Source: the human T2T-CHM13v2.0 reference genome, Homo sapiens. Taken from it: a DNA stretch of 64,000 nt. Shown in pieces: positions 14,071 to 22,037 of the stretch; the stretch's first letter is position 1, and the number at the start of each line of letters is the position of its first letter. The stretch lies in NCBI RefSeq assembly GCF_009914755.1, contig NC_060942.1; one strand, written 5' to 3'. The translations under genes were made by a program, and so were the position numbers. The notes beneath the pieces were generated by a model that did not search any database, had not been told where the DNA came from, and saw nothing but the letters and a program-made list of their open reading frames with translations.

Positions 14071-14503
14071 TGTCAGGCCTCTGAGCCCAAGCCAAGCCAT
14101 CGCATCCCCTGTGACTTGCATGTATACGCCCAGATGTCCTGAAGTAACTGAAGAATCACAAAAGAAGTGAAAAGGCCCTGCCCCGCCTTAACTGATGACA
14201 TTCCACCATTGTGATTTGTTCCTGCCCCACCTTAACTGAGTGATTAACCCTGTGAATTTCCTTCTCCTGGCTCAGAAGCTCCCCCACTGAGCACCTTGTG
14301 ACCCCCACCCCTGCCCACCAGAGAACAACCTCCTTTGACTGTAATTTTCCATTAACTTCCCAAATCCTATAAAACGGCCCCACCCCATCTCCCTTCGCTG
14401 ACTCTCTTTTCGGACTCAGCCCGCCTGCACCCAGGTGAAATAAACAGCCATGTTGCTCACACAAAGCCTGTTTGGTGGTCTCTTCACAGGGACACGGATG
14501 AAA
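14071..14503 (+). promoter_or_regulatory. 5' LTR (LTR7 family, LTR7Y/type Ia-like): promoter
   Basis: TGTCAGGCCTCTGAGCCCAAG…ATGAAA; ACAAAAGA SOX-like motif 14158-14165; GC/CACCC boxes near 14181, 14225, 14303, 14378; TATAAAA 14368-14374; AATAAA 14439-14444. Subfamily call is from memory of the TTCCACCATTGTGATTTGTTCC block. Confidence 0.92.
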
Positions 14504-14505
14504 TT

Positions 14506-14523
14506 TGGTGCCGTGACTCGGAT
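14506..14523 (+). other. Primer-binding site complementary to tRNA-His 3' end
   Basis: TGGTGCCGTGACTCGGAT is the exact reverse complement of the last 18 nt of tRNA-His(GUG) including CCA; 2 nt after the 5' LTR. Confidence 0.97.
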
Positions 14524-14646
14524 CGGGGAACCTCCCTTAGGAGATCAATCCCCTGTACTCCTTTTCTTTGCCCTGTGAGAAAGATCCACCTATGACCTCA
14601 GGTCCTCAGACCGACCAGCCCAAGGAACATCTCACCAATTTTAAAT

Positions 14647-14655
14647 CAGGTAAGC
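14647..14655 (+). promoter_or_regulatory. HERV-H major (leader) splice donor
   Basis: CAG|GTAAGC, exon end 14649, about 146 nt downstream of the 5' LTR, the usual position of the HERV-H leader donor. Confidence 0.85.
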
Positions 14656-14924
14656 GGCCTCTTCTTACTCTCTTCTCCAACCTCTCTCACTGTCCCTCAA
14701 CCACTCTCTCCTTTCCACTCTTCAATCTCTCCCTTCTCTTAATTTCAATTCCTTTCATTTTCTGGGAGAGACAAAGGAGACACGTTTTATCCATGGACCC
14801 AAAACTCCGGCGCCGGTCACGGACTGGGAAGGCAGCCTTCCCTTGGTGTTTAATCATTGCAGGGATGACTCTCTGATTATATACCCACATTTCAAGGGTG
14901 TCAGACCACGCAGGGACACCTGCC

Positions 14925-15325
14925 TTGGTCCTTCACTCTTAGCGGCAAGTCCCGCTTTTCTGGGGAAGGGGCAAGTACCTCAACCCCTTCTCTCCTTGTC
15001 TCTACCCCTTCTCTGGTTTCCTGGGGCAGGGGCAAGTACCCCAACCCCTTCTCCTTCACCCTTAGCCACAAGTTCCGCTTTCCTGGGGCAGGGGCAAGTA
15101 CCCCTCAACCCCTTCTCCTTCACCCTTAGCAGCCAAGTCCCGCTTTCCTAGGGGGCAAGAACCCCCCCAATCGCTTATTTCCGCACCCCAACCTCTTATC
15201 TCTGTGCCCCAATCCCTTATTTCCGCACCATGACCTCTTATCTCTGTGCCCCAATCCCTTATTTCCGTGCCCCAACCCCTTCTCTGCTTTTCTGGAGGGC
15301 AAGGACCCCCTACCCCTTCTCCGTG
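14925..15325 (+). repeat. HERV-H leader tandem repeats
   Basis: Several copies of GGGGCAAGTACC(T/C)CAACCCCTTCTC and two of CCTCTTATCTCTGTGCCCCAATCCCTTATTTCCG. Confidence 0.85.
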
Positions 15326-15358
15326 TCTCTACTCTTGTCTGGGCTTGCCTCCTTCACT

Positions 15359-16600
15359 ATGGGCAAGCTTCCACCTTCCATTCCTCCTCCTTCTCCCTTA
15401 GCCTATATTCTTAAGAACTTAAAACCTCTTCAACTCACACCTGACCTAAAACCTAAATGCCTTATTTTCTTCTGCAATGCCGCTTGACCCCAATACAAAC
15501 TCAACAGTAGTTCCAAATAGCCAGAAAATGGCACTTTGAATTTTTCCATCCTGCAAGATCTAAATAATTCTTGTCATAAAATAGGCAAACGGTCTGAGGT
15601 GCCTGACGTCCAGGCATTCTTTTACACATCAGTCCCTTCCTAGTCTCTGTGCCCAGTGCAACTCGTCCCAAATCTTCCTTCTCTCCCTCCCGCCTGTCCC
15701 CTCAGTACCAACCCCAAGCGTCACTGAGTCTTTCTAATCTTCCTTTTCTACAGACCCATCTGACCTCTCCCTTCCTCCCCAGGCTGCTCCTCGCCAGGCC
15801 GAGCTAGGTCCCAATTCTTTCTCAGTCTCCGCTCCTCCACCCTATAATCTTTTTATCACCTCCCCTCCTCACACCTGGTCCGGCTTACAGTTTCGTTCCG
15901 TGACTAGCCCTCCCCCACCTGCCCAGCAATTTACTCTTAAAAAGCCAAAGGCATAGTCAAGGTTAATGCTCCTTTTTCTTTATCCCAAATCAGATAGCGT
16001 TTAGGCTTTTTCATCAAATATAAAAATCCAGCCCCGTTCAAGGCTCGTTTGGCAGCCACCCTGAGACGCTTTACAGCCCTAGACCCTAAAAGGTCAAAAG
16101 GCCGTCTTATTCTCAATATACATTTTATTACCCAATCTGCTCCCGACATTAAATAAAACTCCAAAAATTGGAATCTGGCCCTCAAACCCCACAACAGGAC
16201 TTAATTAACTTCACCTTCAAGGTGTACAATAACAGAAAAAAGTTGCAATTCCTTGCCTCCACTGTGAGACAAACCCCAGCCACATCTCCAGCACACAAGA
16301 ACTTCCAAACGCCTGAACCGCAGCGGCCAGGTGTTCCTCCAGAACCTCCTCCCACAGGAGCTTGCTACACGTGCCGGAAATCTGGCCACTGGGCCAAGGA
16401 ATGCCCGCAGCCCGGGATTCCTCCTAAGCCGCGTCCCATCTGTGTGGGACCCCACTGAAAATCGGACTGTTCAACTCTCCTGGCAGCCACTGCCAGAGCC
16501 CCTGGAACTCTGGCCCAAGGCTCTCTGACTGACTCCTTCCCAGATCTTCTCGGCTTAGCGGCTGAAGACTGACACTGCCCGATCGCCTCGGAAGCCCCCT
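15359..16600 (+). pseudogene. gag: Disrupted HERV-H gag
   Basis: MGKLPPSIPP start region, PPPY late motif 15834-15845, intact CCHC knuckle CYTCRKSGHWAKEC 16363-16404, second knuckle broken (R for C, TGA for W); multiple stops. Confidence 0.9.
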
Positions 16601-16625
16601 AGACCATCACGGACGCCGAGCTTCG

Positions 16626-16900
16626 GTAACTCTCACAGTGGAAGGTAAGCCCGTCCCCTTCTTAATCAATACGGAGGCTACCCACTCCACATTACCTTCT
16701 TTTCAAGGGCCTGTTTCCCTTGCCTCCATAACTGTTGTGGGTATTGACGGCCAGGCTTCTAAACCTCTTAAAACTCCCCAACTGTGGTGCCAACTTAGAC
16801 AACACTCTTTTAAGCACTCCTTTTTAGTTATCCCCACCTGCCCAGTTCCTTTATTAGGCTGAAACACTTTAACTAAATTATCTGCTTCCCTGACTATTCC
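16626..16900 (+). pseudogene. pro: Disrupted HERV-H protease
   Basis: VEGKPVPFLINTEATHSTL (catalytic DTG reads NTE), …PTCPVPLLG* where LLGRD is expected. Confidence 0.88.
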
Positions 16901-16949
16901 TGAACTACAGCTATATCTCATTGCCGCCCTTCTTCCCAATCCAAAGCCT

Positions 16950-18790
16950 CCTTTGCGTCCTCCTCTTGTATCCCCCCACCTTAACCCACAAGTATAAGAT
17001 ACCTCTACTCCCTCCTTGGCGACGGATCATGCACCCCTTACCATCTCATTAAAACCTAATCACCCTTACCCCACTCAATGCCAATATCCCATCCTGCAGC
17101 ACGCTTTAAAAAGATTAAAGCCTGTTATCACTCGCCTGCTACAGCATGGCCTTTCAAAGCCTATAAACTCTCCTTACAATTTCTCCATTTTACCTGTCCT
17201 AAAACCAGACAAGCCTTACAAGTTAGTTCAGGATCTGCGCCTTATCAACCAAATTGTTTTGCCTATCCACCCCATAGTGCCAAACCCATATACTCTCCTA
17301 TCCTCAATACCTGCCTCTATAACCCATTATTCTGTTCTAGATCTCAAACATGCTTTCTTTACTATTTCTTTGCACCCTTCATCCCAGCCTCTCTTCACTT
17401 TCACTTGGACTGACCCTGACACCCATCAAGCTCAGCAAATTACCTAGGCTGTACTGCTGCAAAGCTTCACAGACAGCCCCCATTACTTCAATCAAGCCCA
17501 AATTTCTTCCTCATCTGTTACCTAATTCAGCATAATTCTCATAAAAGCACACGTGCTCTCCCTGCCAATCGTGTCTGACTGATCTCTCAAACCCCAGCAC
17601 CTTCTACAAAACAACAACTCCTTTCCTTCCTAGGCATGGTTAGCATGGTCAGAATTCTTATACAAGAGCCAGGACCACACCCTGTAGCCTTTCTGTCCAA
17701 ACAACTTGACCTTACTGTTTTAGCCTAGCCCTCATGTCTGTGTGCAGTGGCTGCCGCTGCTTTAACACTGTTAGAGGCCCTAAAAATCACAAACTATGCT
17801 CAACTCACTCTCTACATTTCTCATAACTTCCAAAATCTATTTTCTTCCTCATACCTGACGCATATACTTTCTGCTCTCCGGCTCCTTCAGCTGTACTCAC
17901 TCTTTAAGTCCCACAATTACCATTGTTCCTGGCCCGGACTTCAATCTGGCCTCCCACATTATTCCTGATACCACACCTGACCCTCATGACTGTATCTCTC
18001 TGATCCTCCTGATATTCACCCCATTTCCCCATATTTCCTTCTTTCCTGTTCCTCACCCTGATCACACTTGATTTATTGATGGCAGTTCCACCAGGCCTAA
18101 TCGCCACACACCAGCAAAGGCAGGCTATGCTATAGTACAAGCCACTAGCCCGCCTCTCAGAACCTCTCATTTCCTTTCCATCGTGGAAATCTATCCTCAA
18201 GGAAATAACTTCTCAGTGTTCCATCTGCTATTCTACTACTCCTCAGGGATTATTCAGGCCCCCTCCCTTCCCTACACATCAAGCTCGAGGATTTGCCCCC
18301 ACCCAGGACTGGCAAATTAGCTTTACTCAACATGTCCCGAGTCAGGAAACTAAAATACCTCTTAGTCTAAATAGACACTTTCACTGAATAAGTAAAGGCC
18401 TTTCCTACAGGGTCTGAGAAGGCCACCACAGTCATTTCTTCCCTTCTGTCAGACATAATTCCTCAGTTTAGCCTTCCCACCTCTATACAGTCTGATAACA
18501 GACCAGCCTTTATTAGTCAAATCAGCCAAGCAGTTTTTCAGGCTCTTAGCATTCAGTGAAACTTTTATATCCCTTAGGGTCCTCCGTCTTCAAGAAAAGT
18601 AGAATGGACTAAAGGTCTTTTAAAAACACACCTCACCAAGCTCAGCCACCAACTTAAAAAGGACTGGACAATATTTTTACCACTTTCCCTTCTCAGAATT
18701 CAGGCCTGTCCTCGGAATGCTATAGGGTACAGCCCATTTGAGCTCCTGTATAGACGCTCCTTTTTATTAGGCCCCAGTCTCATTCCAGAC
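16950..18790 (+). pseudogene. pol: Disrupted, internally deleted HERV-H pol (RT, RNase H and integrase remnants)
   Basis: RT motifs YKLVQDLRLIN and YSVLDLKHAFFTI; no YxDD seen; RNase H FIDGSS near 18072; integrase-like IQSDNRPAF near 18485; stops and frameshifts. Confidence 0.9.
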
Positions 18791-18799
18791 ACCAGACCA

Positions 18800-19370
18800 A
18801 CTTAGACTGTGCCCCCCAAAAAAACTTGTCATCCCTACTATCTTCTGTCTAGTCATACTCCTATTCACCGTTCTCAACTACTCATACATGCCCTGCTCTT
18901 GTTTACACTGCCTGTTTACACTGTTTCTCCAAGCCATCACAGCTGATATCTCCTGGTGCTATCCCCAAACTGCCACACTTAACTCTTGAAGTAAATAAAT
19001 AATCTTGGCTGGCAGGACTATGCTGAATCTCCTTAGGCACTCTCTAATCAGATGTCTTAGGTCTAAGGACCTTTTATACCTGTTTTTCTCCTTCTCTTAT
19101 TCCATTTAGTTTTTCAATTCATACAAAACCGTATCCAGGCCATCACCAATCATTCTATATGACAAATGTTTCTTCTAACAACCCCACAATACCACCCCTT
19201 ACCACAAGACCTCCCTTCAGCTTAATCTCTCCCACTCTAGGTTCCCACACTGCCCCTAATCCTGCTTGAAGCAGCCCTGAGAAACATCACCCATTCTCTC
19301 TCCATACCACCCCCAAAAATTTTCGCCACCCTAATACTTCAACACTATTTTGTTTTATTTTTCTTATTAA
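18800..19370 (+). pseudogene. env: Short env remnant and 3' untranslated region
   Basis: Only about 0.55 kb between the integrase remnant and the PPT; splice acceptor …cttctgtctag| at 18852; no immunosuppressive-domain motif visible. Confidence 0.7.
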
Positions 19371-19373
19371 TAT

Positions 19374-19386
19374 AAGAAGGCAGGAA
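19374..19386 (+). other. Polypurine tract
   Basis: AAGAAGGCAGGAA immediately before the 3' LTR TG. Confidence 0.9.
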
Positions 19387-19818
19387 TGTCAGGCCTCTGA
19401 GCCCAAGCCAAGCCATCGCATCCCCTGTGACTTGCATGTTTATGCCCAGATGGCCTGAAGTAACTGAAGAATCACAAAAGAAGTGAAAAGGCCCTGCCCC
19501 GCCTTAACTGATGACATTCCACTATTGTGATTTGTTCCTGCCCCACCTTAACTGAGTGATTAACCCTGTGAATTTCCTTCTCCTGGCTCAGAAGCTCCCC
19601 CACTGAGCACCTTGTGACCCCCGCCCCTGCCCACCAGAGAACAACCCCCTTTGACTGTAATTTTCCATTAACTTCCCAAATCCTATAAAACGGCCCCACC
19701 CCTATCTCCCTTCGCTGACTCTTTTCGGACTCATCCGGCCTGCCCCCAGGTGAAATAAACAGCCATGTTGCTCACACAAAGCCTGTTTGGTGGCCTCTTC
19801 ACATGGACGCACATGAAA
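19387..19818 (+). terminator. 3' LTR with proviral poly(A) signal
   Basis: Direct repeat of the 5' LTR (14 substitutions and 2 indels by manual alignment); TATAAAA 19684-19690; AATAAA 19754-19759. Confidence 0.95.
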
Positions 19819-20428
19819 AGTATCTTAAACATAAGTTAGTAAGATGAATCCAGCAATGTATAATAAATTGGTAATATATTAAAACTAATTAGTTTCCTAT
19901 CAAGAATGCAAGATTGTATATTATTAGAACAAATTCACTAATTCAAGATATTATCAAATTATAATAGAGATTACCTCAGTAGGTGCTGAAAAGGATTTAA
20001 TATAACTTGGAATAAATTATTTAAAATAACATATAAACTAAATTTAGAAGAAAGATCCCTTAGACTAAAATAGGTTATCACAAAAAATCCATAACAAATG
20101 TCATAAATTAGTGGTAAAATTGAAATCTTATTTGTTAAAGATCAGGAATAAGTCAATTATATCTCTTATAACTGTGTAATTAAATGATTGAAAAGTAATA
20201 AATCAAACATCTTTATAGATAACATGCTTGTTCATATAAAAAACAAGTTGACTGATAGGTTATTAGAACTCATGAAGAAGGTAGAGCAAAATAAAAATCT
20301 TGTTTTAAAAAAACGTATGTAGTTTTACAGGTAGGTGTGTGTGAAATACAATATTCAGCTGTATGTAATTATAAGGTTTAACAGTTATACAACTATATCC
20401 ATATAAAACTATATATAACCATATACTG

Positions 20429-20799
20429 TGTATTTGTCTGTTCTCACACTGCTAATAAAGACATACCTGAGGAGCAAAGTCACGTAATACAATTTATAAA
20501 GGAAAGCAGTTCAATAGACTCACAATTCCACATGGCTGGGGAAGCCTGACAATCATGGCAGAAGGCAAAGGAGGAGCAAAGTCACGTCTTGTATGGTGGC
20601 AGGCAAGAGAGAGCTTTTATAAATCTGATGATTTATAAAATCATCAGATCTCGTGAGACTTATTCACTAACGGAGAGCAACATGGGAAAGACCCGCCCCC
20701 GTGATTCAGTTACCTCCCACTGGGTCCCTCTCAGGACACATGAAAATTACTACAATTCAAGGTTAGATTTAGGTAGGGACCCAGAGCCAAACCATATTA
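20429..20799 (-). mobile_element. THE1 solo LTR
   Basis: TGTATTTGTCTGTTCTCACACTGCTAATAAAGACATACC … GCCAAACCATATTA, about 370 bp. Confidence 0.9.
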
Positions 20800-20802
20800 T
20801 AC

Positions 20803-21175
20803 AGGATAGTTAATTTATGTGTAAACTTGTTTAGCCCATAGTACACAGATACTTGTTGAAACAGGTCTACATGTTGCTGGGCAGGTATTTTTAGATGAAA
20901 TTAACACATAAGTAGAATATGAGAAAAGTATAGTACCCTCCATAACATGGGTGAGATTCATGCCATCAGTTGAAGGCTTAAGAAAGAGACAGACCTCCCC
21001 TAGGAAGAGGGAAACCTGACAATTAGAGGGCCTTTGGACTCCAGCTGTGACATCCACTCTTCCTTGAGCACGCATCCAGCCTGCTGCCTGGCCTGCAGAT
21101 TTTGAATTTATCAGTCTCCCAAATTCAGTGAGCCTACTACTTACATAATCTCTCTCTGTATATATATTAGACACA
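20803..21175 (+). mobile_element. MLT2 (ERVL) LTR fragment
   Basis: gttaatttatgtgtaaacttg…ccctccataacatgggtg…catcagttgaaggc… typical of MLT2. Confidence 0.7.
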
Positions 21176-21918
21176 CACCTCTTTCCCTTTCTCTAAAAAT
21201 ATGACTTCTAATCAAATTGATGTATAGATCCAATGCAATTCCCATAAAAAATCTTGTGAAAATACATGCACACAAGTGTGAAATGTGTGTGTGATTGCAT
21301 ACAAATTGACAGGAATATTTTTAAATGTATGTAGAAATGCAAATGACTAAGAATAAAACAAGATGAGGTGATTTTTCTGAATCTCTATCAAGAATTAACG
21401 TGTCATTGTTTAAGAATTAAGATAATGGAGTATTAGAACAGGAATAGTCAAATGGATGGAAAAATAAAGAGTCCAAAAGGAACAAAGCACAAATTAAGCT
21501 TTGATTAATGACAAGGCTTGGATTTCAAGTGAGTAGAAAAATACGGCCTATAAAATGAGTGTTATTGGGTCAATTCAGAATCCACATGGAAAAAAAAAAA
21601 TCGAACCAGTGTCAAAATTAATGCCTATTAATGTATATTAAAAATCCATTGCAAAACACATTTTCAAAAGCAATGTGGAAACATATCATTACAACCTTAG
21701 ATAGGATTTCTTAAGTAAAAAAAAAATTGCAATCTGTATGAAAGGACATTAACATAAATTCAACTGCATTAAAATCAAGTGCTTTGGCTCCTGAGGGACC
21801 CAGAAATATTGACTTCTGAACTATTCCTTGTGGTTGTTAACTAAGAAAAATACATTTTACACCTATCAAATAAAAACTTATTTTGTCTTTTATGTGAAGT
21901 CTGTTCCTTCTTCCCTAG

Positions 21919-22037
21919 AGACCTTGAAGATTTGTTGTTCAAGGAGAAACTGAAGAGCAAGAAGGAAAGTGAGAGCCAGCAATACCAGCAGAGCCAGATC
22001 TGAGCTGGGAGAAGGGGAGAAAGTTTGTGAAGAGGAG
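21919..22037 (+). ncRNA. Candidate internal exon (119 nt) of an HERV-H-initiated lncRNA
   Basis: Acceptor ctgttccttcttccctag|, purine-rich GAAGA-containing body, donor GAG|GTAAGA; non-repeat sequence 2.1 kb downstream of the provirus. Confidence 0.65.

What the first reader, a model, noticed from the sequence alone, without database searches (positions are those of the whole stretch)
14592..16458. Leader ATG spliced in frame onto the intact Gag zinc knuckle: predicted 52-aa CCHC microprotein
Seen: ATG at 14592 opens MTSGPQTDQPKEHLTNFKS plus 1 nt up to the donor at 14649. The acceptor cctcctcccacag| (exon start 16358) continues the frame as G-A-CYTCRKSGHWAKEC-PQPGIPPKPRPICVGPH* (TGA 16456-16458). 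The first knuckle keeps perfect C-X2-C-X4-H-X4-C spacing while the rest of gag is broken. A donor AAG|GTAAGC at 16644/16645 could close this exon. Established: CCHC knuckles bind single-stranded nucleic acid. Inference: splicing could rescue a nucleic-acid-binding microprotein from a coding-dead provirus. Caveats: weak Kozak context (cctATGa), an upstream ORF, and possible NMD if further splicing follows.
Basis: partly seen in the sequence, partly recalled or inferred. Interest (0 to 1): 0.7.

Follow-up and report, generated by a model that had tools for sequence, protein, structure and literature searches.

The report
HERV-H leader ATG and relic zinc knuckle
The predicted 52-residue zinc-knuckle peptide is a paper product of an ordinary decayed HERV-H provirus that drives the lncRNA LINC02582; the proposed splice site has no support, although old retrocopies show that the family did splice into this same small region.

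Summary
Every sequence fact in the finding holds: ATG 14592, donor 14649|GTAAGC (the annotated end of LINC02582 exon 1), AG 16356-7, an intact first CCHC knuckle, stop at 16456-8, and a 52-aa joined frame. None of it is special to this locus or beyond chance.

- **The ATG is common.** It is one state of a CpG site: 144 exact copies in the genome carry ATG, 261 ACG and 51 ACA.
- **The arrangement is family-wide.** Of 80 ATG-bearing HERV-H copies fetched, 48 show the whole arrangement. The knuckle is intact in 61 of the 77 that hold this region, and its ligand codons are no better kept than their neighbours.
- **Translation is unlikely.** The ATG is the third in the exon, has weak context, and sits 14 nt behind a 42-codon upstream ORF. 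The RefSeq transcript skips the provirus interior.
- **The proposed acceptor has no support.** Four ancient retrocopies of spliced HERV-H RNA join the leader donor to the homologues of 16280, 16448 (twice) and 16487, never to 16358.
- **What survives.** Acceptor 16280 is present here, is in frame and would give a 78-aa knuckle ORF, but its stop lies 186 nt before that donor, which predicts NMD.

Verdict: a retroviral relic; a functional microprotein is improbable.

The parts
14071..14503 (+). 5' LTR of the HERV-H provirus (LTR7 type). The annotated transcription start is at 14397 and an AATAAA lies at 14439.
   Evidence: Script alignment with the 3' LTR covers 431 aligned bases with 14 mismatches, 96.8% identity. 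The transcription start is from the hub annotation.
14506..14523 (+). Primer-binding site directly behind the LTR.
   Evidence: The sequence is seen. Its reading as a tRNA-His site is recalled, and agrees with Liang 2012, who place a tRNA-His primer-binding site downstream of the HERV-H 5' LTR.
14397..14649 (+). LINC02582 exon 1, made of R, U5, the primer-binding site and the leader up to the retroviral major splice donor.
   Evidence: Hub annotation (NR_038340.1). The donor reads CAG|GTAAGC.
14450..14578 (+). Upstream ORF of 42 codons plus stop. Its first ATG has the context ACAGCCATGTT, and a second in-frame ATG lies at 14498. It ends 14 nt before the ATG at 14592.
14592..14649 (+). The leader ATG, 19 codons and 1 base (phase 1). 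It is the third ATG of the exon, with C at -3 and A at +4.
   Evidence: Genome counts of the exact 19-mer are 144 with ATG, 261 with ACG and 51 with ACA.
16153..16458 (+). The last open piece of gag: 101 codons without any Met, ending in TGA. It encodes the nucleocapsid (NC) region.
   Evidence: no M. Pfam zf-CCHC scores 30.5 bits. The homologous stretch is open in 38 of 77 sampled copies.
16278..16279 (+). AG acceptor (exon start 16280) used in the spliced retrocopy L090. It is in the same phase as 16358 and would give a 78-codon frame that includes the knuckle.
   Evidence: The AG is kept in 76 of 77 copies. Its crude acceptor score is poor, rank 249 of 387.
16356..16357 (+). A second AG 15 nt upstream, at 16341-2, is also in phase.
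   Evidence: The AG is kept in 74 of 77 copies. It ranks 36 of 387 by a crude score. No yUnAy motif lies in the 56 nt upstream. None of the 4 spliced retrocopies uses it.
16363..16404 (+). First NC zinc knuckle, C-X2-C-X4-H-X4-C, intact.
   Evidence: It is intact in 61 of 77 sampled copies. The closest solved sequences are retroviral NC proteins.
16432..16470 (+). Second NC knuckle, 13 codons, broken. The first ligand position is not Cys, and the stop at 16456-8 lies inside it.
   Evidence: The spacing matches the two motifs of 42 and 39 nt, 27 nt apart, quoted for the family's gag in Gemmell 2019. A stop at this codon is shared by 34 of 77 copies.
16485..16486 (+). AG acceptor (exon start 16487) used in the spliced retrocopy L091. 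It would give a 47-codon frame without a knuckle.
   Evidence: The AG is kept in 72 of 77 copies.
16645..16650 (+). Internal splice donor AAG|GTAAGC. HERV-H homology of retrocopies L090 and L091 ends exactly at 16644.
   Evidence: The GT is kept in 72 of 77 copies.
16566..16859 (+). Protease remnant.
   Evidence: Pfam RVP scores 31.2 bits.
16998..17444 (+). Reverse-transcriptase remnant.
   Evidence: Pfam RVT_1 scores 24.6 bits, below its cut-off of 29.6.
19387..19818 (+). 3' LTR.
   Evidence: An AATAAA lies at 19754.
21921..22037 (+). LINC02582 exon 2, the annotated partner of donor 14649. Read from ATG 14592, this isoform gives a 46-codon frame without a knuckle.
   Evidence: Hub annotation.

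Best explanation
The region is a 5.7-kb, env-less HERV-H provirus (14071-19818). Its 5' LTR promotes the lncRNA LINC02582. Its retroviral major splice donor (14649) serves as the exon-1 donor and, in the annotated RNA, is joined to non-viral exons far downstream.

- **The ATG.** It is one state of a decaying CpG that a third of the family carries.
- **The knuckle.** It is the first of the two nucleocapsid knuckles of the old gag and has survived like its neighbouring codons.
- **The frame match.** The leader and the gag frame match after splicing because of phase geometry inherited by the whole family.
- **How the family spliced.** HERV-H RNAs did splice from the leader donor into this 200-nt region and out again at 16644. 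The acceptors that left traces are the homologues of 16280, 16448 (lost in this copy) and 16487, not 16358.
- **What could be made here.** Any peptide started at 14592 would at most be low-level translational noise. The products expected first are the 46-codon frame of the annotated RNA or the 94-codon frame of unspliced RNA, neither with a knuckle.

Shown: the anatomy, the family counts and the retrocopy junctions. Inferred: that no functional microprotein is made.
For: **Anatomy**
- The LTR pair is 96.8% identical.
- Pfam finds zf-CCHC, RVP and a weak RVT_1.
- gag lies in pieces.

**Annotated splice**
- RefSeq joins 14649 to 21921 (hub annotation).
- The LINC02582 sequence was determined by 5' and 3' RACE in MDA-MB-231 cells, and ORF Finder found no protein (PMC6787210, passages).

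**Family-wide nature**
- The exact 19-mer occurs 144 times with ATG, 261 with ACG and 51 with ACA.
- The first 80 of the 144 ATG-bearing copies, as listed, were fetched. Of these 80, 74 have GT at +58, 76 have an open leader, 74 have the AG, 66 have all of these, 48 also put the knuckle in the product, and 20 give exactly 52 codons.

**No sign of selection**
- The four ligand codons keep their residue in 72-75 of 77 copies. Most neighbouring codons without a CpG keep theirs in about 70-76 of 77.
- Random sets of four codons reach the ligand value in 5.6% of 2000 draws.

**Poor start**
- The ATG is the third in the exon, has C at -3, and lies 14 nt behind the upstream ORF.

**Splice evidence**
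- Retrocopies L090, L091, L089 and L092 join the leader end to the homologues of 16280, 16487, 16448 and 16448.
- L090 and L091 stop at 16644.
- L089 starts at the homologue of the transcription start and ends in a 28-A tail behind the LTR.
- No match to a leader-to-16358 or leader-to-16343 junction appeared among the 66 pattern matches.

**NMD**
- The stop lies 186 nt before the 16644 donor.
Against: - No RNA-seq, Ribo-seq or proteomic data could be consulted, so use of AG 16357 at this locus is not excluded.
- The crude acceptor score (frequencies recalled, not MaxEnt) puts 16358 at rank 36 of 387. That is level with the annotated acceptor 21921 (rank 35) and far above the retrocopy-proven 16280 (rank 249). 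By that measure the site is not bad, and the measure is not predictive.
- The retrocopy search needed an exact 15-base leader word, so diverged retrocopies were missed. Four retrocopies is a small sample.
- Acceptor 16280, present in this copy, would also place the intact knuckle in frame behind the ATG (78 codons).
- ATG is 2.8 times commoner than the mirror CpG-decay product ACA (144 against 51). Independent neutral decay alone does not predict that.
- Ribosome-profiling work reports HERV-H-superfamily RNA on ribosomes in embryonic stem cells (PMC10759522, passages).
Confidence: 0.8

Rival explanations
1. Donor 14649 is joined to AG 16357, translation starts at 14592, and a 52-residue single-knuckle peptide that binds single-stranded nucleic acid is made from this locus.
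For: - The frame exists and the knuckle passes Pfam.
- The joined frame would have a predicted pI of 9.1 and a charge of +3.7.
- Solved single-knuckle nucleocapsid proteins of about this size exist, for example the 56-residue chain 1u6p.
- The acceptor has CAG|G and an 11-base pyrimidine-rich run, and ranks 36 of 387.
Against: - None of the 4 spliced retrocopies uses it.
- RefSeq does not use it.
- An AG lies 15 nt upstream and there is no yUnAy motif in the 56 nt upstream.
- The ATG is the third in the exon, has weak context and lies just after an upstream ORF.
- The 19-residue leader part is not basic, at charge -0.4.
- The stop is 186 nt before donor 16644.
- No extra conservation is seen.
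Confidence: 0.03
2. An altered form of the model. Some transcripts of this and dozens of sister loci include the family's internal exon (16280 or 16487 to 16644). With acceptor 16280 the leader ATG reads a 78-codon frame through the intact knuckle. The product is made at low level in cells with high HERV-H transcription, as noise or as a source of presented peptides, without a cellular function.
For: - Retrocopy L090 proves that the leader-to-16280 and 16644-to-downstream junctions were made.
- The AG at 16278-9 is kept in 76 of 77 copies and the GT at 16645-6 in 72 of 77.
- Liang 2012 cloned singly and multiply spliced HERV-H RNAs running from the primer-binding site to the 3' R region (PMC3253121, Results).
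- HERV-H-superfamily RNA is ribosome-associated in embryonic stem cells (PMC10759522).
Against: - There is only one retrocopy for this junction.
- Its polypyrimidine tract is very poor, rank 249 of 387.
- The start-site handicaps are the same.
- The predicted NMD is the same.
- No data exist for this locus.
Confidence: 0.12
3. The ATG at 14592 is used, but on the RNAs known or most likely to exist. These are the annotated LINC02582 (46-codon frame running into exon 2) and unspliced leader RNA (94-codon frame ending at 14876). Neither contains a knuckle.
For: - Both frames were computed.
- The 14649^21921 junction is the annotated one.
- Among the 80 sampled copies, the unspliced frame from the ATG has a median of 53 codons and reaches 90 or more in 20.
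Against: - The same weak start and upstream ORF apply.
- ORF Finder analysis by the LINC02582 authors found nothing they considered coding.
- Pfam finds nothing in the 94-residue frame.
Confidence: 0.1

Closest known systems
HERV-H (RTVL-H) proviruses with LTR7-driven lncRNAs that use the retroviral leader splice donor (the class that includes LINC-ROR; ESRG is recalled as another member)
   Same: - It has an LTR pair, a primer-binding site and gag, protease and RT remnants.
- It lacks env and is 5.7 kb long.
- Exon 1 ends at the leader donor and is joined to downstream host exons. Izsvak 2025 (PMC12228294) and Kelley and Rinn 2012 (PMC3580499) describe this for the class.
- The genome holds 144, 261 and 51 exact copies of the leader 19-mer in its three states.
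   Different: Nothing material. This locus is an ordinary member. The link between LINC02582 and HERV-H was not found in the papers listed.
Alternative exon inside gag of a gammaretrovirus (Akv murine leukaemia virus SA'/SD')
   Same: Both are facultative internal exons bounded by an acceptor and a donor inside gag, giving singly and doubly spliced RNAs in a gammaretrovirus-like genome (PMC1936429, abstract). Here the acceptors are 16280, 16448 and 16487 and the donor is 16644, as traced in retrocopies.
   Different: - The Akv exon lies in capsid. This one spans the end of nucleocapsid and the start of protease.
- The evidence here is fossil retrocopies, not RNA.
- No function is known for either.
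Spliced HERV-H sequences fixed in genomic DNA by retrotransposition (Goodchild, Freeman and Mager, Virology 1995; Wilkinson et al., J Virol 1990, on unit-length and shorter spliced RTVL-H RNAs)
   Same: L089 and L092 are copies in which the leader donor is joined directly to the homologue of 16448. L089 starts at the transcription start and ends in a poly(A) tail.
   Different: Both papers are recalled only. Wilkinson 1990 (PMC249374) was not held, and Goodchild 1995 was never seen. I cannot say whether their acceptor is the same one.
Retroviral nucleocapsid proteins (two-knuckle Gag 8pug; single-knuckle MLV NCp10 1u6p)
   Same: The CCHC knuckle and the proline-rich linker align with a two-knuckle Gag (8pug, E 3e-5, query residues 14-52) and with NCp10 (1u6p, E 2e-4).
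   Different: - The second knuckle is broken here.
- The peptide would carry a non-basic, non-viral-protein N-terminus.
- No processing sites are present.
- Nucleic-acid binding was not tested.
The proposal that the zinc-finger part of HERV-H gag (region G4) was exapted (Gemmell, Hein and Katzourakis 2019)
   Same: It concerns the same stretch of gag. They report that its presence goes with 38% and 68% higher transcription, and they speculate about a protein that binds viral RNA (PMC6629862, passages).
   Different: - They propose no splice route or start codon.
- My counts show no excess conservation of the ligand codons.
- The stretch also holds the family's internal splice sites. That offers an RNA-processing reason for their correlation. 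This last point is my inference and is untested.

Membership tests
HERV-H provirus (LTR7 / HERVH-int) | Two LTRs in direct orientation flanking an internal region | tested here: met
   The LTRs lie at 14071-14503 and 19387-19818, with 431 aligned bases at 96.8% identity.
HERV-H provirus (LTR7 / HERVH-int) | Primer-binding site for tRNA-His directly after the 5' LTR | tested here: inconclusive
   An 18-base site lies at 14506-14523 right behind the LTR. It was not compared with a tRNA-His sequence, so the assignment is recalled. Liang 2012 place such a site there.
HERV-H provirus (LTR7 / HERVH-int) | gag with NC knuckles, protease and RT in that order | tested here: met
   Pfam gives zf-CCHC 30.5 bits, RVP 31.2 bits and RVT_1 24.6 bits, the last below its cut-off. 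All are in broken frames.
HERV-H provirus (LTR7 / HERVH-int) | High-copy family in the same genome with close sequence identity | tested here: met
   The first look found 1028 candidates, and the 40 that were scored are 95-100% identical over 101 bases. Of the 80 fetched copies, 77 align over the NC and protease stretch at 79-98% identity.
Pfam zf-CCHC (PF00098) zinc knuckle | C-X2-C-X4-H-X4-C with a score above the gathering cut-off | tested here: met
   It scores 30.5 bits against a cut-off of 20.8, at residues 70-86 of the 16153-16455 translation.
Functional retroviral nucleocapsid of this family | Both knuckles intact within an open gag | tested here: not met
   The second knuckle (16432-16470) lacks its first Cys and holds a stop. 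gag lies in at least five frames.
Translated small ORF / microprotein | A transcript that contains the ORF (junction 14649^16358) | not testable with these tools
   No RNA data were available. RefSeq joins 14649 to 21921. None of the 4 spliced retrocopies carries this junction.
Translated small ORF / microprotein | A usable start codon (first AUG or good context) | tested here: not met
   It is the third ATG of the exon, has C at -3, and lies 14 nt after a 42-codon upstream ORF.
Translated small ORF / microprotein | Sequence constraint on the coding frame | tested here: not met
   Ligand codons are kept in 72-75 of 77 copies, like most neighbouring non-CpG codons. The shuffle control gives 5.6%. 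This compares paralogous copies, not orthologues in other primates, which could not be examined.
Translated small ORF / microprotein | Ribosome footprints or peptides | not testable with these tools
   No such data were available. The literature searches found only family-level ribosome association.

The most novel reading that the evidence does not exclude
The leader-to-NC frame is a family-level 'multi-copy gene'. Dozens of HERV-H loci (48 of the 80 sampled ATG-bearing copies) can join an ATG-bearing leader in frame to the intact first knuckle. The route is the family's own internal exon (acceptor 16280 or a neighbour, donor 16644), whose use is fossilised in retrocopies. In pluripotent cells, where HERV-H RNA is abundant, the pooled output would be a real CCHC peptide that binds HERV-H or other retroelement RNA. 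The excess of ATG over the mirror decay product (144 against 51) would then reflect amplification from, or retention of, ATG-bearing sources.
Probability: 0.04. Interest if true: 0.6.

Novelty: already known. Interest (0 to 1): 0.22.

Why it matters
If the peptide were real, it would be a retrovirus-derived nucleic-acid binder made from 'non-coding' HERV-H RNA in stem cells. It would also give body to the published speculation that the zinc-finger part of HERV-H gag was co-opted.

As it stands, the value is negative and practical.

- **The configuration is generic.** The ATG, the donor, the AG and the knuckle are family-wide, so any junction read or peptide would map to dozens of loci. It cannot be credited to LINC02582 without locus-specific variants.
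- **The by-product is more useful.** Retrocopies pin down where HERV-H RNAs really were spliced (acceptors 16280, 16448 and 16487; donor 16644). These sites lie inside the gag region whose presence correlates with transcript level. That suggests an RNA-processing explanation, rather than a protein one, which can be tested.

Tried and rejected
- **Papers not held.** Jern 2005, Wilkinson 1990 and Wilkinson 1993 were not held, so published HERV-H splice-site coordinates could not be read. Goodchild 1995 is recalled only.
- **Literature searches.** Ten searches found no paper that describes a leader-to-NC junction, a HERV-H CCHC microprotein, or a link between LINC02582 and HERV-H. One search was badly framed and was swamped by unrelated virology. 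Supplementary tables of Ribo-seq and sORF catalogues were not opened and could bear on this.
- **Splice-site scoring.** MaxEnt was not available. A crude matrix from recalled base frequencies was used and turned out to be uninformative. It ranks the annotated acceptor 21921 and the candidate equally, and it ranks the retrocopy-proven 16280 near the bottom. I give it little weight either way.
- **Control sample of ACG-bearing copies.** This was meant to test whether the ATG travels with a subfamily. Within the ATG sample, the donor triplet CAG goes with the shared stop (18 of 28, against 5 of 18 for CCG), which points to subfamily structure.
- **L017.** It looked like a spliced copy because it has no GT after the leader. 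It is instead a leader followed by an inverted primer-binding site and U5, so it was rejected as splice evidence.
- **Structure, complex and atlas tools.** They were not used.
Full report
**1. The observation**

The bases are as described. The ATG is at 14592-14594 in the context CCACCTATGAC. Nineteen codons and one extra base follow, up to CAG|GTAAGC at 14649/14650. That donor is the annotated end of LINC02582 exon 1 (hub annotation).

At 16356-7 there is an AG behind a C-rich pyrimidine run. Joining 14592-14649 to 16358 onward in a script gives a 52-codon frame that ends at TGA 16456-8. The translated stretch 16153-16455 scores 30.5 bits against Pfam zf-CCHC, cut-off 20.8. AAG|GTAAGC is present at 16644/5.

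The six-frame list shows gag split over at least five short frames before the last open 101-codon piece at 16153-16458. That piece contains no Met.

A second AG 15 nt upstream (exon start 16343) is also in phase and would give 57 codons.

**2. What the region is**

- LTRs lie at 14071-14503 and 19387-19818. They are 96.8% identical over 431 aligned bases.
- A primer-binding site follows the 5' LTR at 14506-14523.
- The knuckle is followed by a protease remnant (RVP, 31.2 bits) and a weak RT remnant.
- This is a 5.7-kb env-less HERV-H provirus. The leader stretch has 1028 first-look candidates in the same genome, and the 40 that were scored are 95-100% identical.
- The second nucleocapsid knuckle (16432-16470) is broken. 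Its first ligand position is not Cys, and the stop at 16456-8 lies inside it. The layout of a 42-nt motif, 27 nt and a 39-nt motif matches the two zinc-finger motifs quoted for the family's gag in Gemmell 2019 (PMC6629862, passages).
- The closest solved sequences are retroviral nucleocapsids: a two-knuckle Gag (8pug, E 3e-5) and the single-knuckle MLV NCp10 (1u6p, E 2e-4).

**3. Is it more than chance?**

*The ATG.* The exact 19-mer around it occurs 144 times in this genome with ATG, 261 times with ACG and 51 times with ACA (reversed-pattern controls gave 0). So the ATG is one state of a CpG site and is common.

*The arrangement.* I fetched the first 80 of the 144 ATG-bearing places as listed.

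| Feature | Copies out of 80 |
|---|---|
| Hold the NC region | 77 |
| GT at +58 | 74 |
| Open 19-codon leader | 76 |
| AG at the homologue of 16356-7 | 74 |
| All of leader, GT and AG | 66 |
| Knuckle also in the joined frame | 48 |
| Joined frame of exactly 52 codons | 20 |

*The knuckle.* It is intact in 61 of 77 copies. Its four ligand codons keep their residue in 72-75 of 77 copies, like most neighbouring non-CpG codons (about 70-76 of 77). Random sets of four other codons reach the ligand value in 5.6% of 2000 draws. That control is depressed by codons where the window itself is the odd one out.

*The stop.* The stop at 16456-8 is shared by 34 of 77 copies.

*The phase.* The phase match has a prior of one in three. 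Of 386 AGs in annotated intron 1, 103 extend the frame by 30 codons or more.

Nothing here singles out this locus or suggests selection.

**4. Could it be translated?**

- Exon 1 holds two earlier ATGs, at 14450 (context ACAGCCATGTT, G at -3) and at 14498.
- They open a 42-codon upstream ORF that ends at 14578, 14 nt before the ATG at 14592.
- The ATG at 14592 has C at -3 and A at +4.
- On the annotated RNA (14649^21921) the same ATG reads 46 codons with no knuckle. On unspliced RNA it reads 94 codons.
- If the exon is closed at 16644, the stop lies 186 nt before the junction. By the usual 50-55-nt rule (established knowledge) this predicts nonsense-mediated decay.
- The authors who mapped LINC02582 by 5' and 3' RACE found no ORF they regarded as coding (PMC6787210, passages).

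**5. Is the acceptor used?**

No RNA data were available, so I looked for fossils. These are genomic copies in which the leader end is followed by something other than the intron.

Four pattern searches used a 15-base leader word, two free bases, and then either 'not G' or 'G, not T'. They gave 13, 3, 29 and 21 matches. Most are point-mutated donors or unrelated sequence; the reversed controls gave 5 forward and 2 reverse matches each. Three are clean junctions, and a fourth came from a junction-spanning search.

| Retrocopy | Leader joined to homologue of | What follows |
|---|---|---|
| L090 (contig 1) | 16280, directly behind the AG at 16278-9 | HERV-H homology runs to exactly 16644, then stops |
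| L091 (contig 8) | 16487, behind the AG at 16485-6 | HERV-H homology also stops exactly at 16644 |
| L089 (contig 12) | 16448 | Starts at the homologue of the transcription start and ends with LTR sequence and a 28-A tail |
| L092 (contig 11) | 16448 (same junction, different flanks, 86% identical to L089) | Runs on unspliced to at least 17290 |

In L090 and L091 the sequence after 16644 is a different repeat. The two are 93.5% identical over 843 bases, and the repeat is absent from the window's provirus and from the other stored HERV-H loci. Its first bases look to me like the 5' end of an L1 element; that naming is recalled, not tested. The linkers before it differ (7 and 198 bases), so these are two separate events.

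These four copies show three things. The leader donor, the donor at 16644 and acceptors at 16280, 16448 and 16487 were all used in HERV-H RNAs that reached the germ line.

*State of these sites in the window and in the 77 sampled copies*

| Site | Window | Copies with the signal |
|---|---|---|
| AG at 16278-9 | AG | 76 of 77 |
| AG at 16485-6 | AG | 72 of 77 |
| GT at 16645-6 | GT | 72 of 77 |
| AG at 16446-7 | GG (lost) | 11 of 77 |

*Limits.* There are only four fossils, an exact leader word was required, and each junction type is seen once or twice. My crude acceptor score (recalled frequencies) ranks 16358 36th of 387. That is level with the annotated 21921 (35th) and close to 16487 (39th), while the proven 16280 ranks 249th. 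The score therefore neither helps nor hurts the candidate. No yUnAy motif lies within 56 nt upstream of 16357, whereas both annotated acceptors have one at 28-40 nt. This is a weak negative.

**6. What survives of the interpretation**

All three positions 16280, 16358 and 16448 are in the same phase. With acceptor 16280, which this copy retains, the ATG would read 78 codons through the intact first knuckle to the same stop. With 16487 it reads 47 codons without a knuckle.

So the idea that a spliced HERV-H RNA can place the knuckle behind a leader ATG is geometrically sound and rests on real family splice sites. It holds for dozens of loci at once, has the same poor start and the same predicted NMD, and has no data at this locus. 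I put low-level, functionless production through the family exon at about 12%. I put a real family-level CCHC peptide at about 4%.

**7. Comparison with what is known**

- The locus is an ordinary LTR7/HERV-H lncRNA promoter unit (Izsvak 2025, PMC12228294, passages; Kelley and Rinn 2012, PMC3580499, passages).
- Spliced and multiply spliced non-coding HERV-H RNAs running from the primer-binding site to the 3' R region were cloned by Liang 2012 (PMC3253121, abstract and Results). No acceptor coordinates appear in the passages I saw.
- A facultative exon inside gag is known for Akv MLV (PMC1936429, abstract).
- My inference is that the same stretch carries the family's internal splice sites, which offers an RNA-processing explanation for that correlation.
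- A 2026 preprint raises HERV-derived micropeptides from lncRNAs in general terms (10.64898/2026.04.29.721355, passages).
- HERV-H-superfamily RNA is ribosome-associated in embryonic stem cells (PMC10759522, passages).
- Spliced HERV-H copies in genomic DNA and a shorter spliced RTVL-H RNA are, as I recall, described by Goodchild 1995 and Wilkinson 1990. Neither could be read.

**8. Verdict**

The thing itself is already known: a decayed HERV-H provirus serving as the promoter and first exon of a lncRNA. The microprotein is improbable and, as specified, unsupported. Interest is low. The retrocopy map of real HERV-H splice sites is the most useful by-product.

Noticed in passing
window 14592-14594 and genome-wide: At this leader CpG, the ATG state (144 exact copies) is 2.8 times commoner than the mirror decay product ACA (51). 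Independent neutral CpG decay should give about equal numbers. Inheritance from ATG-bearing source elements is the likely reason. Within the ATG sample, the donor triplet CAG goes with the shared stop in the second knuckle (18 of 28, against 5 of 18 for CCG).
   Followed up: partly
L090 (contig 1, about 83.899 Mb) and L091 (contig 8, about 99.715 Mb): These are two independent chimeric retrocopies. Each has a 5'-truncated HERV-H U5 and leader, the internal exon ending exactly at the homologue of 16644, a linker of 7 or 198 bases, and then the start of another repeat. The two repeats are 93.5% identical over 843 bases, and to my recollection they are the 5' end of an L1. This looks like HERV-H-promoted, spliced read-through into an L1 that then retrotransposed, or template switching by the L1 enzyme.
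   Followed up: partly
L017 (contig 1, about 233.075 Mb), plus contig 3 at 181010962 and contig 16 at 66369366: In three copies on different chromosomes, the leader ends exactly at the donor position and is followed by the reverse complement of the primer-binding site and U5. This is a snap-back-like inverted structure, not a splice product.
   Followed up: partly
contig 3 at 158819798: In one copy, the leader end is followed directly by sequence like the R region of the LTR (homologue of window 14421-14438). It could be a splice or a deletion to the 3' LTR. It was not fetched.
   Followed up: no
window 16446-16447: The acceptor used by two independent singly spliced retrocopies (L089, L092) is AG in only 11 of 77 sampled copies, and is GG in this provirus and in 63 of the other copies. 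The family's apparent main subgenomic acceptor is therefore absent from most present-day copies, or was a feature of a minority of source elements.
   Followed up: partly
window 14900-15330: The leader between the donor and the gag start holds imperfect tandem repeats. Repeated peptide-like motifs appear in several frames in the ORF list. The distance from the ATG to the knuckle varies from 1463 to 2282 bases among copies. Their copy number was not analysed.
   Followed up: no
window 14504-17514, 15591-15651 and 15721-15819: RefSeq lists a mobile_genetic_element and two non-allelic-homologous-recombination regions inside the provirus (hub annotation). They were not examined here.
   Followed up: no
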